A stretch of DNA of 44,292 nt from a virus (lineage: Duplodnaviria > Heunggongvirae > Uroviricota > Caudoviricetes): the IMG/VR virus record IMGVR_UViG_2660238147_000001; one strand, 5' to 3'. Of the stretch, positions 16,257 to 16,944 are shown in pieces. The notes beneath the pieces are model-generated. The model saw only the letters and a list, made by a program, of their open reading frames with translations. It had not been told where the DNA came from and searched no databases. The translations under genes were made by a program, and so were the position numbers. Position 1 is the stretch's first letter; each line of letters opens with the position of its first letter.

Positions 16257-16601
16257 ATGACTCAAAACTATGAACTGATTGTGAAAGGGATCCGCAATTT
16301 TGAGAATACAGTTACGGTAACTTTAGCGTTACGGGACAAAAAACGCTTTGACGGTGAAATTTTAGACCTGGACATCTCGCTGGACCGTGTTGAAGGTGCC
16401 GCGCTGGAGTTTTATGAGGCAGCAGCCAGAAGGAGCATCAGACAGGTCTTCCTGGATGTTGCTGCCGGGTTATGTGAAGGGGATGAGCAGTCACCGGAAA
16501 AGCGCCCCATAATTTTAGAGGCGCAGGGTGTGTGGATAACCTACAAAGGAAAACTGCCGGGAAGAATTACTGGTTCACTGAAGACTCCGCCGAAATGGTA
16601 A
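16257..16601 (+). CDS. Hypothetical protein inserted between holin and endolysin
   Basis: 114-aa ORF starting 5 nt after the holin stop with an upstream GGGGAGAG; no family recognised. Confidence 0.5.
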   Translation: MTQNYELIVKGIRNFENTVTVTLALRDKKRFDGEILDLDISLDRVEGAALEFYEAAARRSIRQVFLDVAAGLCEGDEQSPEKRPIILEAQGVWITYKGKLPGRITGSLKTPPKW

Positions 16602-16839
16602 TTTCACCAGCATATTTTTCTTCCAGTAATACCGCCAGCCACTTGAAAGAATTTTGTTGTTGCTGGGACCATTTGGGGTTGAGTGATTCAAGCTGGAGCG
16701 ATGCCAGTGTTGGTTGCATTTGTTCCTTGGGAATTGAGAATGCCAGATATGAAAATGCGACAGTAAGGGCATTTACATCATCCCGAAGCTTGGAAATGCA
16801 GTCGAGCAACTCCTGTAGAGAAATGGTGCTATTGTCCAT
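16567..16839 (-). CDS. Hypothetical protein encoded antisense within the lysis cassette
   Basis: 90-aa minus-strand frame from an ATG with a GAGAGGA Shine-Dalgarno 6 nt upstream; 3' end overlaps the preceding plus-strand gene by 35 nt; candidate own promoter (TTGAAT ... TACAAT) in 16846-16900 on the minus strand. Confidence 0.45.
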   Translation of the reverse strand: MDNSTISLQELLDCISKLRDDVNALTVAFSYLAFSIPKEQMQPTLASLQLESLNPKWSQQQQNSFKWLAVLLEEKYAGEITISAESSVNQ

Positions 16840-16944
16840 AAACAATCCTCTCTATTGTATTTAACTATTCCTTGCCTGATTCAACAGGCCGGGACAGATA
16901 AACATATCCAGGGTTCAGAAACCGATAAATCCTGATAAATATCC

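What the first reader, a model, noticed from the sequence alone, without database searches (positions are those of the whole stretch)
16257..16845. Two unknown genes, one antisense, embedded between holin and endolysin
In phage 21 and lambda the holin is followed directly by the endolysin. Here a 114-aa gene is translationally coupled to the holin, and a 90-aa gene with a strong Shine-Dalgarno and a candidate own promoter runs on the opposite strand; the two converge and overlap by 35 nt. A convergent, independently promoted gene inside a late operon is typical of morons (exclusion, toxin-antitoxin-like or lysis-timing functions). Neither protein matches a family I recognise.
Basis: partly seen in the sequence, partly recalled or inferred. 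Interest (0 to 1): 0.55.

Follow-up and report, generated by a model that had tools for sequence, protein, structure and literature searches.

The report
Conserved convergent gene pair in prophage
Between the holin and endolysin of this E. coli prophage lie a known-family late gene of unknown function (YdfR/DUF1327) and a real, opposite-strand 90-residue gene of an unstudied family, and this overlapping pair recurs as a movable cassette in phages of several enterobacterial genera.

Summary
ydfR (16257-16601, +) starts 4 nt after an S21-type holin. A 90-aa gene, here called X (16567-16839, -), has a good Shine-Dalgarno and overlaps ydfR by 35 nt.

The plus gene is not unknown: it is YdfR/DUF1327, as in K-12 Qin essQ-ydfR-rrrQ. 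Its first 74 residues are 78% identical to K-12 YdfR, whose first 72 residues were reported to bind RNase E.

X is a genuine gene (phrog_2411). It stays intact at 73-85% nucleotide identity, dN/dS is 0.24-0.38, and the plus-strand shadow frame acquires stops. It has no Pfam, NCBIfam, PADLOC or PDB match. The model is an acidic three-helix protein.

X lies in a 292-bp, low-GC cassette (16597-16888) that about 23 nt replace in otherwise similar prophages. It occurs in 1221 of 5426 complete E. coli genomes. No convincing promoter was found.

New here: in E. coli, Citrobacter, Yersinia and an Atlantibacter-like phage, X always converges on a late-strand gene ending I(T/F)G(S/E/D)L(K/R/F)xP, encoded at X's stop codon. 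The pair sits at four different late-operon positions, which argues against a lysis-specific role. X also exists alone, as the core gene dinI-X-bssS in Serratia. Function is inferred, not shown.

The parts
16037..16252 (+). S21-type class II holin (pinholin), 71 aa with dual start M1/M4. This is the upstream neighbour, not part of the cassette.
   Evidence: PF04971 at E 9e-33 and phrog_9876/phrog_20 holin. Annotated 'class II holin family protein' in the 100% identical record.
16257..16601 (+). ydfR-family gene (DUF1327), 114 aa. This is the late-strand partner 'P' of the pair. It starts 4 nt after the holin stop, with GGAGAG 7 nt upstream.
   Evidence: PF07041 at 138.6 bits (cut-off 25) and phrog_406 at E 2e-66. 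PGAP names it 'YdfR family protein'.
16257..16478 (+). YdfR N-terminal domain, residues 1-74 (three strands plus a long helix). It matches the part of K-12 YdfR reported to bind the catalytic half of RNase E.
   Evidence: 78% identity over residues 1-74 to K-12 YdfR, with no similarity after that. PMC13232886 maps the interaction to residues 1-72. The AF2 model has pLDDT 64-86 in this part only.
16533..16592 (+). Codons 93-112 of ydfR: the conserved C-terminal hairpin motif VWITYKGKLPGRITGSLKTPP. ITGSL is at 16566-16580, across the stop codon of X.
   Evidence: The motif I[TF]G[SED]L[KRF]xP lies within 30 nt of X's stop in E. coli, Citrobacter, Yersinia and L187/L188. It has no other occurrence in 505,000 six-frame residues.
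16567..16839 (-). Gene X: 90 aa, acidic (11 D/E against 6 K/R), predicted three-helix protein with Leu heptads at 11/18/25/32. It belongs to phrog_2411.
   Evidence: phrog_2411 at E 5e-59. 63 close and about 60 distant homologue clusters. dN/dS 0.24-0.38, with stops only in the shadow frame. AF2 pLDDT 78. PGAP WP_000370546.1, 'hypothetical protein'.
16567..16601 (.). The 35-nt convergent overlap of the 3' ends of ydfR and X.
   Evidence: Coordinates. The same geometry, with X's stop inside or next to the ITGSL codons, is seen in Yersinia and Citrobacter.
16846..16853 (-). Shine-Dalgarno of X (AGAGAGGA), 7 nt before the ATG.
   Evidence: Read from the sequence. GAGGA is invariant in 32 unique alleles. 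Similarity of the diverged copies L166/L167 ends just upstream of it.
16597..16888 (.). The 292-bp insertion/deletion cassette that carries X and the last two codons plus stop of ydfR. About 23 nt replace it in 'empty' alleles, and unrelated convergent-gene cassettes replace it in others.
   Evidence: blastn break points at query 560 and 853 in more than 25 loci. Junction sequences are and the alternative alleles. GC is 43-44% against 50-53%.
16498..16524 (-). Weak candidate terminator for X: a 7-bp GC-rich hairpin with a 9-nt loop, then UUUU, 45-70 nt past X's stop and inside ydfR coding sequence.
   Evidence: strand folding result (region z-score only -1.4). It was not found by the terminator scan. 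Status uncertain.
16889..16944 (.). Spacer upstream of the endolysin, shared by all alleles and highly conserved (pi 0.02). It holds R's ribosome-binding region. If X has a promoter outside the cassette, it must be here.
   Evidence: No consensus promoter on either strand.
16945..17478 (+). SAR-type endolysin (R21-like). This is the downstream neighbour.
   Evidence: PF00959 at E 1e-24 and phrog_7.

Best explanation
The two ORFs are the two halves of a conserved, mobile, convergent gene pair carried in lambdoid late operons.

Shown:
- The plus gene is a YdfR/DUF1327 late gene read with the holin. It has an N-terminal domain whose K-12 counterpart binds the catalytic half of RNase E. It also has a C-terminal hairpin motif, ...GRITGSLKTPP.
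- The minus gene X is a real, separately transcribed accessory gene. It encodes a small acidic three-helix protein with a leucine-heptad first helix. Its family also exists as a stand-alone chromosomal gene in Serratia and relatives.
- In E. coli, X arrives as a 292-bp low-GC cassette placed immediately after the YdfR motif.

Inferred mechanism:
1. X lies on the strand opposite the Q-dependent late operon, so it can only be made from its own, probably weak, promoter while the late operon is silent (lysogen or early infection).
2. After induction, antiterminated late transcription runs antisense through the whole of X. It collides with X transcription and pairs with X mRNA, so X is shut off just as the partner protein appears.
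3. The partner's conserved C-terminal hairpin, preceded by a helix or coiled coil, then engages X or X's cellular target.

On this reading the pair is a state-coupled on/off module and not a lysis-timing device. The cellular target is unknown. RNase E is the only experimentally indicated contact, and only for the YdfR N-domain.
For: Family assignments:
- DUF1327 at 138.6 bits and phrog_2411 at E 5e-59.
- 78% identity to K-12 YdfR over residues 1-74.
- Published two-hybrid and co-purification of K-12 YdfR with RNase E 1-597/598, plus RNA co-purification (PMC13232886).

X is a real gene:
- It is intact in copies at 73-85% nucleotide identity in unrelated contexts.
- dN/dS is 0.24-0.38, and the shadow frame is broken.
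- Profile searches find homologues in Citrobacter, Klebsiella, Atlantibacter, Yersinia, Sodalis and Serratia.
- Core synteny pyrC-dinI-X-bssS holds in Serratia and Chimaeribacter.

Cassette:
- Sharp break points and alternative alleles.
- Low GC.
- Present in 1221 of 5426 complete E. coli genomes, including REL606, BL21 derivatives and CFT073.

Pair conservation:
- In every late-operon context, the gene converging on X runs in the late direction and ends with I[TF]G[SED]L[KRF]xP within 30 nt of X's stop.
- The motif has zero background occurrences in 505,000 six-frame residues.
- All codon differences in ITGSL between E. coli and Yersinia are synonymous, so selection acts on the partner peptide.
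- The pair sits at four different operon positions: S|R, before the holin, I|J and M|L.

Structure: X models as three helices at pLDDT 78, with invariant Leu at 11/18/25/32. The partners outside E. coli carry coiled-coil-like segments before the motif.
Against: - No promoter for X was identified. The in-cassette upstream segment is the least conserved part. Only Citrobacter shows a 9/12 promoter-like site upstream of X.
- No expression data were found.
- The pairing is not obligatory in either direction. YdfR with the same motif occurs without X in 'empty' alleles and with unrelated antisense genes (phrog_2572, phrog_1853). X occurs without any partner in chromosomes, a pathogenicity island, a plasmid, and possibly a Klebsiella phage.
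- Outside the 8-10-residue motif, the partners in other genera show no detectable similarity to YdfR (hhalign probability about 5%).
- Protein-protein contact between X and the partner is pure inference.
- The YdfR model is poor (pLDDT 60).
- K-12 YdfR overexpression changed few transcripts.
Confidence: 0.45

Rival explanations
1. X is an ordinary independent moron with no functional tie to YdfR: a cargo gene that benefits the lysogen, for example in exclusion, stress response or host-factor modulation. On this reading the ITGSL motif travels with it only because cassette exchange breaks at that conserved sequence, or because the ancestral DNA segment included the end of the neighbouring gene.
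For: - X works alone in other settings: it is a core gene in Serratia and Chimaeribacter, and intact copies lie beside iha and on an IncF plasmid.
- YdfR keeps the motif without X, and the same slot accepts two unrelated antisense genes.
- The left break point of all E. coli alleles lies right after the motif.
- Indel status, low GC and opposite strand fit the classical moron.
Against: - The motif is kept at the protein level through synonymous changes while X has diverged to 39% identity.
- The partner's remaining sequence is unrelated between genera, so it is not simple hitch-hiking of one gene end.
- The pair has been placed at four different operon positions, always with the same convergent geometry.
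Confidence: 0.3
2. The pair tunes lysis. YdfR, translationally coupled to the pinholin, acts as a cytoplasmic antiholin-like or endolysin-ratio regulator. The antisense X transcript or protein sets the timing by cutting or masking the S-ydfR-R message.
For: - In E. coli the pair sits between an S21-type holin and a SAR endolysin, with a 4-nt gap to the holin.
- The slot is occupied in 101 phage records and in most E. coli genomes.
- PMC13232886 cites a screen linking ydfR to envelope integrity.
Against: - Homologous pairs lie in tail operons (I|J, M|L) and upstream of a different type of holin in other genera.
- Neither protein has a membrane segment.
- Many functional phages lack X, and phage 21 and lambda lack both genes.
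- There is no similarity to known antiholins.
Confidence: 0.12
3. The pair is a toxin-antitoxin-like or abortive-infection/exclusion pair. One protein would be harmful and the other its antidote, kept in balance by convergent antisense transcription.
For: Two small genes are inherited together and overlap convergently, which allows reciprocal antisense control. Prophage accessory slots often hold such systems (general knowledge).
Against: - No hit to any PADLOC, Pfam or NCBIfam toxin, antitoxin or defence model.
- Known protein TA pairs are co-directional operons.
- Type I toxins are small hydrophobic peptides, and neither protein is hydrophobic.
- Each gene occurs widely without the other.
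- Strep-YdfR was overproduced in K-12 and accumulated. The passages read report growth arrest only for YegJ, not YdfR.
Confidence: 0.08
4. The minus ORF is not expressed. It would be a shadow of the plus-strand frame 16532-16864 or a decaying relic.
For: The two frames share third codon positions, so both stay open in close relatives and dN/dS cannot separate them. Some genomes carry frameshifted copies of X. No promoter was found.
Against: - The plus frame acquires 1-3 stops in diverged copies, while the minus frame stays intact with conservative substitutions.
- Homologues at 30-40% identity exist in eight or more genera, with their own ribosome-binding sites.
- A confident helical model was obtained.
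Confidence: 0.03

Closest known systems
essQ-ydfR-rrrQ of the E. coli K-12 Qin prophage (YdfR, P76160; Pfam DUF1327)
   Same: The gene order is the same: holin, DUF1327 gene, endolysin. The N-terminal 74 residues are 78% identical. Both are of unknown function. K-12 YdfR binds RNase E residues 1-597 and co-purifies RNA (PMC13232886).
   Different: K-12 YdfR has a different C-terminus (residues 75-103). It lacks the ITGSLKTPP hairpin motif, overlaps rrrQ directly, and has no antisense gene.
Classical lambdoid morons (lambda bor and lom, HK97 gp15; Juhala/Hendrix definition)
   Same: X is an extra gene between two genes that are adjacent in related phages. It has deviating base composition and is transcribed independently of the late operon. 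Like bor, it lies on the opposite strand in the lysis region.
   Different: No clear promoter or terminator of its own was found. X overlaps its neighbour by 35 nt. It is tied to a conserved motif in the neighbouring late gene across genera, so the mobile unit looks like a two-gene convergent pair and not a single gene.
Convergent or overlapping antisense gene pairs with mutually exclusive expression (lambda oop/cII, P22 sar/ant, 'excludon'-type loci)
   Same: The geometry is similar: transcription of one partner is necessarily antisense to the other. This would make X and late-operon expression mutually exclusive (inference).
   Different: In those systems one partner is usually a non-coding RNA or a long UTR. 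Here both partners are conserved proteins. No transcript data exist for this locus.
Phage proteins that act on RNase E (phiKZ Dip, T4 Srd, T7 gp0.7)
   Different: There is no sequence similarity, and the structural match is near noise. K-12 YdfR overexpression changed few transcripts. Any effect on RNase E activity is unproven.
Alternative cassettes at the same slot: phrog_2572 (86 aa) with YdfR-183/211, and phrog_1853 (104 aa) with YdfR-268 (e.g. Stx2-converting phage 86 gp05/gp06)
   Same: They share the insertion point right after ...SLK(T/M)PP and the same convergent small gene on the minus strand.
   Different: The antisense proteins show no detectable similarity to X. In these alleles YdfR continues into long C-terminal extensions, so the motif is internal.

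Membership tests
YdfR / DUF1327 (PF07041) | Match to the Pfam model above its gathering score | tested here: met
   138.6 bits against a cut-off of 25, covering residues 1-112 and profile positions 1-92 of 93.
YdfR / DUF1327 (PF07041) | Position between a class II holin and the endolysin in a lambdoid lysis cassette, as in Qin essQ-ydfR-rrrQ | tested here: met
   Window gene order, K-12 locus, many prophages.
YdfR / DUF1327 (PF07041) | Binding of the N-terminal roughly 72 residues to the catalytic half of RNase E, reported for the K-12 protein only | not testable with these tools
   Only sequence conservation of that segment could be shown: 78% identity. The source is PMC13232886.
phrog_2411 (unnamed family of X) | Full-length match to the PHROG profile | tested here: met
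   E 4.7e-59, residues 3-92 of the TTG-started ORF on profile positions 1-90 of 90. Serratia and Klebsiella homologues also hit it, at 1.7e-8 and 1.3e-19.
Moron (Juhala/Hendrix sense) | Extra DNA between two genes that are adjacent in related phages | tested here: met
   ydfR and R are 63 nt apart in 'empty' alleles. The 292-bp cassette is replaced by about 23 nt.
Moron (Juhala/Hendrix sense) | Base composition different from the flanks | tested here: met
   GC 0.43-0.44 over 16600-16900, against 0.50-0.54 in the holin, ydfR and R.
Moron (Juhala/Hendrix sense) | Own promoter upstream | tested here: inconclusive
   No site of 9/12 or better. The best hand match has a 19-nt spacer and conflicts with the Shine-Dalgarno. 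The upstream segment is poorly conserved.
Moron (Juhala/Hendrix sense) | Own factor-independent terminator downstream | tested here: inconclusive
   Only a weak hairpin followed by UUUU at 16498-16524, inside ydfR. It was not called by the scan.
Moron (Juhala/Hendrix sense) | Expression from the repressed prophage | not testable with these tools
   No transcript or proteome data were found in the paper library.
Toxin-antitoxin or anti-phage defence system | Similarity of either protein to a known toxin, antitoxin or defence component | tested here: not met
   No PADLOC hit at E<=1. No relevant Pfam or NCBIfam hit.
Toxin-antitoxin or anti-phage defence system | Obligate co-occurrence of the two genes | tested here: not met
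   Each gene is widespread without the other.
Holin/antiholin-type lysis regulator | Membrane segment, or constant linkage to a holin gene | tested here: not met
   Neither protein has a hydrophobic span. Homologous pairs lie between tail genes in Yersinia and in L187.
RssB anti-adaptor IraP-like small helical protein (considered because IraM lies nearby) | Sequence or profile similarity to IraP (PF10796) | tested here: not met
No Pfam hit for 12 family members.

The most novel reading that the evidence does not exclude
The YdfR-type partner and X would form a previously unrecognised two-protein phage module tied to the lysogeny/lysis state.

- X is a lysogen-expressed copy of a host stress-locus protein (the dinI-X-bssS family). 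It would modulate a host factor, possibly the RNase E-centred RNA decay machinery that the YdfR N-domain contacts.
- The late-expressed partner would use its conserved ITGSL hairpin to bind and neutralise X, or to replace it on the target, once the phage commits to lysis.
- The obligatory convergent overlap would act as the transcriptional interlock between the two.

This would be a new class of mobile 'switch' cassette, able to insert anywhere in a late operon.
Probability: 0.15. Interest if true: 0.7.

Novelty: new variant of a known kind. Interest (0 to 1): 0.45.

Why it matters
YdfR is a K-12 gene of unknown function, and some match to this region is present in about 80% of complete E. coli genomes. 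X is in about 22% of them, including the laboratory strains REL606 and BL21 and the uropathogen CFT073, yet it has no name, no domain assignment and no paper that I could find.

If the two form a conserved convergent unit, there is a concrete, cheap hypothesis to test in standard strains: does X bind the YdfR tail, and is X switched off by late transcription? The result would also link an orphan phage gene to an orphan core gene of Serratia (dinI-X-bssS).

It would also show that morons can be two-gene interlocked units and not only single genes. Finally, it may give a handle on why a phage late protein contacts RNase E. If instead X is just another cargo gene, the result is a routine annotation improvement.

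Tried and rejected
- Shadow-ORF artefact: rejected.
- Codon-position periodicity and dN/dS to pick the coding strand: uninformative, because the third positions of the two frames coincide. Stops in diverged copies were used instead.
- Known-family searches for X all came back empty: Pfam, NCBIfam, PADLOC, PDB sequence profiles, and Foldseek against PDB and BFVD. The AFDB50 library was unavailable.
- IraP-like anti-adaptor idea: no similarity.
- Homology between X and the alternative antisense genes at the same slot: none by BLASTP or hhalign.
- LexA-box idea, prompted by the dinI neighbourhood: no CTGT-N8-ACAG upstream of X in the window or in Serratia, by eye.
- Rfam: nothing in 15800-17100, even at E<=1.
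- X remnant between dinI and bssS in K-12: none.
- Klebsiella phage context: the contig ends 308 nt after X, so the partner could not be checked.
- Literature searches for accession numbers, ybl58 and DUF1327: nothing useful beyond PMC13232886.
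Full report
**1. What is there**

The window is a lambdoid prophage integrated next to potC. It is 100% identical over the 761-nt query (window 16200-16960) to E. coli SK1144. The finding sits in its lysis cassette, which reads as follows.

- An S21-type class II holin lies at 16037-16252 (PF04971, dual start M1/M4).
- A 114-aa ORF lies at 16257-16601 on the plus strand. Its ATG is 4 nt after the holin stop, with GGAGAG 7 nt upstream.
- A 90-aa ORF lies on the minus strand, with its ATG at 16839 and its stop at 16567-16569. AGAGAGGA sits 7 nt upstream of the ATG.
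- A SAR-type endolysin lies at 16945-17478, followed by Rz with an embedded Rz1.

The two ORFs converge and overlap by exactly 35 nt. The stated end, 16845, is an in-frame TTG that neither PGAP nor any homologue uses.

**2. The plus-strand gene is not unknown**

It matches Pfam DUF1327 at 138.6 bits against a cut-off of 25, and phrog_406. RefSeq names it 'YdfR family protein'. The K-12 Qin prophage has the same order, essQ(essD)-ydfR-rrrQ.

The window protein is 78% identical to K-12 YdfR over residues 1-74 and unrelated after that. A 2026 paper (PMC13232886) reports four things about K-12 YdfR.

- It binds RNase E 1-597 in two-hybrid assays and co-purifies with RNase E 1-598.
- Residues 1-72 are sufficient for the interaction.
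- RNA co-purifies with it.
- Overexpression changes few transcripts.

The family is thus modular. It has a conserved N-domain (three strands and a long helix in a mediocre AF2 model) followed by variable C-termini. Here the C-terminus is ...ILEAQGVWITYKGKLPGRITGSLKTPPKW.

**3. The minus-strand gene (X) is real**

A plus-strand ORF at 16532-16864 shadows X, and the third codon positions of the two frames coincide. Periodicity and dN/dS therefore cannot choose between them. Other evidence does.

- In diverged copies the plus frame collects 1-3 stops while the minus frame stays open.
- Substitutions in the minus frame are conservative.
- dN/dS is 0.24-0.38.

X hits phrog_2411 (unknown function) over its full length. 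It hits nothing in Pfam, NCBIfam or PADLOC, nothing in PDB by sequence, and nothing in PDB or BFVD by fold. AF2 gives three helices (8-34, 38-52, 59-77) at pLDDT 78 with a disordered tail. The protein is acidic (11 D/E against 6 K/R). Leu 11/18/25/32 form a heptad ladder; Leu32 is invariant and Leu 11/18/25 are at least 90% conserved across the family, and Tyr31 and Glu51 are also invariant.

**4. X is a cassette**

blastn of 160 related loci shows two classes. In one, homology is continuous. In the other, it breaks at window 16596 and resumes at 16889, with about 23 nt in between, giving YdfR ...TPPESQP* and then R.

Two further alleles use the same left break point.

- YdfR-183/211 pairs with a convergent 86-aa gene (phrog_2572).
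- YdfR-268 pairs with a convergent 104-aa gene (phrog_1853; an example is Stx2 phage 86 gp05/gp06).

These two antisense proteins show no similarity to X.

The X cassette has 43-44% GC, against 50-54% around it. It occurs in 1221 of 5426 complete E. coli genomes, including REL606, BL21 derivatives and CFT073. It occurs in only 3 of 50,697 deposited phage records, whereas the YdfR N-domain occurs in 101. Some genomes carry frameshifted copies.

**5. The X family reaches well beyond this prophage**

A profile search of 1.84 billion representative proteins gives only 20 hits. A second profile search lists about 60 more clusters. The contexts are varied.

- In Serratia and Chimaeribacter, X is a core gene in the fixed order pyrC-dinI-X-bssS-solA. 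K-12 has no remnant at that position.
- In a Sodalis-like group it stands alone.
- In E. coli, intact copies at 73-75% nucleotide identity lie beside iha and on an IncF plasmid among IS debris.
- In Klebsiella it lies upstream of a phage terminase.

X is monocistronic in every case.

**6. The unexpected part: a conserved convergent partner**

Wherever X sits inside a phage late operon, the gene converging on it runs in the late direction. That gene ends with the motif I[TF]G[SED]L[KRF]xP, encoded within 30 nt of X's stop.

| Source | Partner | C-terminal sequence |
|---|---|---|
| E. coli / E. ruysiae | YdfR | ...GRITGSLKTPPKW |
| Citrobacter | 238-aa and 64-aa proteins | ...NEKITGSLR(V/A)P.KL |
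| Yersinia massiliensis | 71-aa protein | ...EKITGSLFAPLSAHPSE |
| Atlantibacter-like viral contigs | 85-aa protein | ...EQIFG(E/D)LKKPPSY |

Three observations argue that this is not chance or simple hitch-hiking.

- The loose motif occurs 13 times in 505,000 six-frame residues of these loci, every time at this place.
- Between E. coli and Yersinia, every codon difference in ITGSL is synonymous, while the residues of X on the other strand differ (SVNQ* against TIP*). Selection therefore acts on the partner peptide.
- Outside the motif the partners are unrelated to YdfR. They share a helix or coiled-coil segment before it.

The pair occupies four different positions: between S and R (E. coli), before the holin (Citrobacter), between tail genes I and J (Yersinia), and between M and L (L187/L188). 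In the three non-E. coli lineages a hairpin with a T-run on the late strand closes the module.

The motif is absent next to chromosomal, island and plasmid copies of X. YdfR also keeps the motif in alleles without X. The link is therefore strong in late operons but not obligatory.

**7. How it most likely works**

What is shown: the gene identities, the cassette structure, the convergent overlap, and selection on both X and the partner motif.

What is inferred runs as follows.

1. X is on the strand opposite a Q-antiterminated operon, so it must have its own transcription start. It can accumulate only while late transcription is off.
2. Once late transcription starts, RNA polymerase traverses all of X in antisense. 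This would silence X and at the same time deliver the partner protein.
3. The joint conservation of X and a short partner peptide suggests that the two proteins meet, or compete for the same target.
4. For the E. coli partner, the N-domain adds a reported contact with RNase E.

I put 0.45 on this 'state-coupled convergent pair' reading. The alternatives are weighted as follows.

- X as an independent moron whose association with the motif reflects recombination history: 0.30.
- A lysis-timing role: 0.12. It is weakened by the tail-operon locations and by the lack of membrane segments.
- A toxin-antitoxin or defence pair: 0.08. There are no model hits, each gene is common alone, and Strep-YdfR could be overproduced in K-12 with no growth arrest reported for it in the passages read.
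- X not expressed: 0.03.

**8. Weak points**

- No promoter was found. The scan is negative. The in-cassette upstream 49 nt are the most variable segment. Only Citrobacter shows a 9/12 site.
- A terminator for X is at best a weak hairpin followed by U4 inside ydfR.
- No expression data were found.
- The survey of non-E. coli phage contexts rests on four lineages.

**9. Verdict**

The plus gene is an already known family of unknown function. The minus gene is a new member of an unnamed, unstudied family. The conserved convergent pairing appears undescribed in the library searched. It is best classed as a new variant of the moron theme.

Interest is moderate, because the hypothesis is directly testable in standard laboratory strains.

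Noticed in passing
window 14945-15280 (-): An IraM-like anti-adaptor gene lies on the minus strand just upstream of the lysis cassette. It is a second antisense accessory gene in the late region. The STnc100 sRNA (14730-14919, +) sits beside it.
   Followed up: partly
window 13784-14030 (+): Three tRNA genes (Ile, Arg, Arg) lie directly downstream of the Q antiterminator gene (12819-13640), as in Stx-type lambdoid phages.
   Followed up: partly
window 15970-15998 (+): A strong hairpin (12 pairs) followed by a T-run lies 40 nt upstream of the holin start. It is probably a terminator that only Q-modified polymerase passes.
   Followed up: no
window 10323-10494 (+) and about 10492-10647: A sok antisense RNA with hokD (type I toxin-antitoxin) lies in the early region. 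DicF RNA is at 4505-4556 (-), and dicB is annotated in the same early region.
   Followed up: no
window 17695-17901 (+) inside 17460-17942: An Rz1-type lipoprotein ORF ([21 protein letters not shown]...) is embedded in a different frame of Rz. The endolysin has a SAR-type N-terminus and the holin a dual start, so this is a phage-21-style pinholin/SAR-endolysin/spanin set.
   Followed up: no
window 15529-15729 (+): A DUF1737 ORF matches Pfam at E 4e-17. RefSeq annotates it as a truncated pseudogene in the identical record.
   Followed up: no
L167 2446-2718 and L166 2471-2749: Intact, diverged copies of X (73-75% nucleotide identity) survive outside prophages among IS fragments. One lies beside the adhesin/siderophore receptor gene iha in a urinary isolate. 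The other lies beside an autotransporter on an IncF plasmid, and one source names a member of this plasmid-type X cluster 'Ybl58'.
   Followed up: partly
L173-L176, L183-L184, L192-L193 (gene at 4001-4279, or 1463-1741 in L184): In Serratia and Chimaeribacter the X family is a core chromosomal gene in the fixed order pyrC-dinI-X-bssS-solA. E. coli K-12 has a 286-bp dinI-bssS spacer with no trace of it.
   Followed up: partly
L165 (REL606 1416625-1418524): In E. coli B (REL606, BL21 derivatives) the identical holin-YdfR-X-endolysin-Rz block sits inside the Rac prophage remnant, between sieB/ydaF and trkG. The lysis block has therefore been recombined into a different prophage.
   Followed up: no
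L003 about 3040-3065 and L004 about 2665-2690: The alternative cassettes (phrog_1853 and phrog_2572 alleles) carry a hairpin followed by T5 on the minus strand, between the endolysin start and the antisense gene. It may insulate those genes from antisense read-in. The X cassette has no such element.
   Followed up: no
L171 4859-4876, L172 4833-4849, L187 1125-1142 (late strand): In the three non-E. coli lineages a terminator-like hairpin with a T-run on the late strand closes the pair, immediately before the next late gene's ATG. It is absent from the E. coli version.
   Followed up: partly
proteins P0044, P0045, P0049, P0051, P0058: Several genomes carry 94-aa variants of X that shift into the other minus-strand frame after about residue 58, indicating decay of the gene in some prophages.
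   Followed up: no
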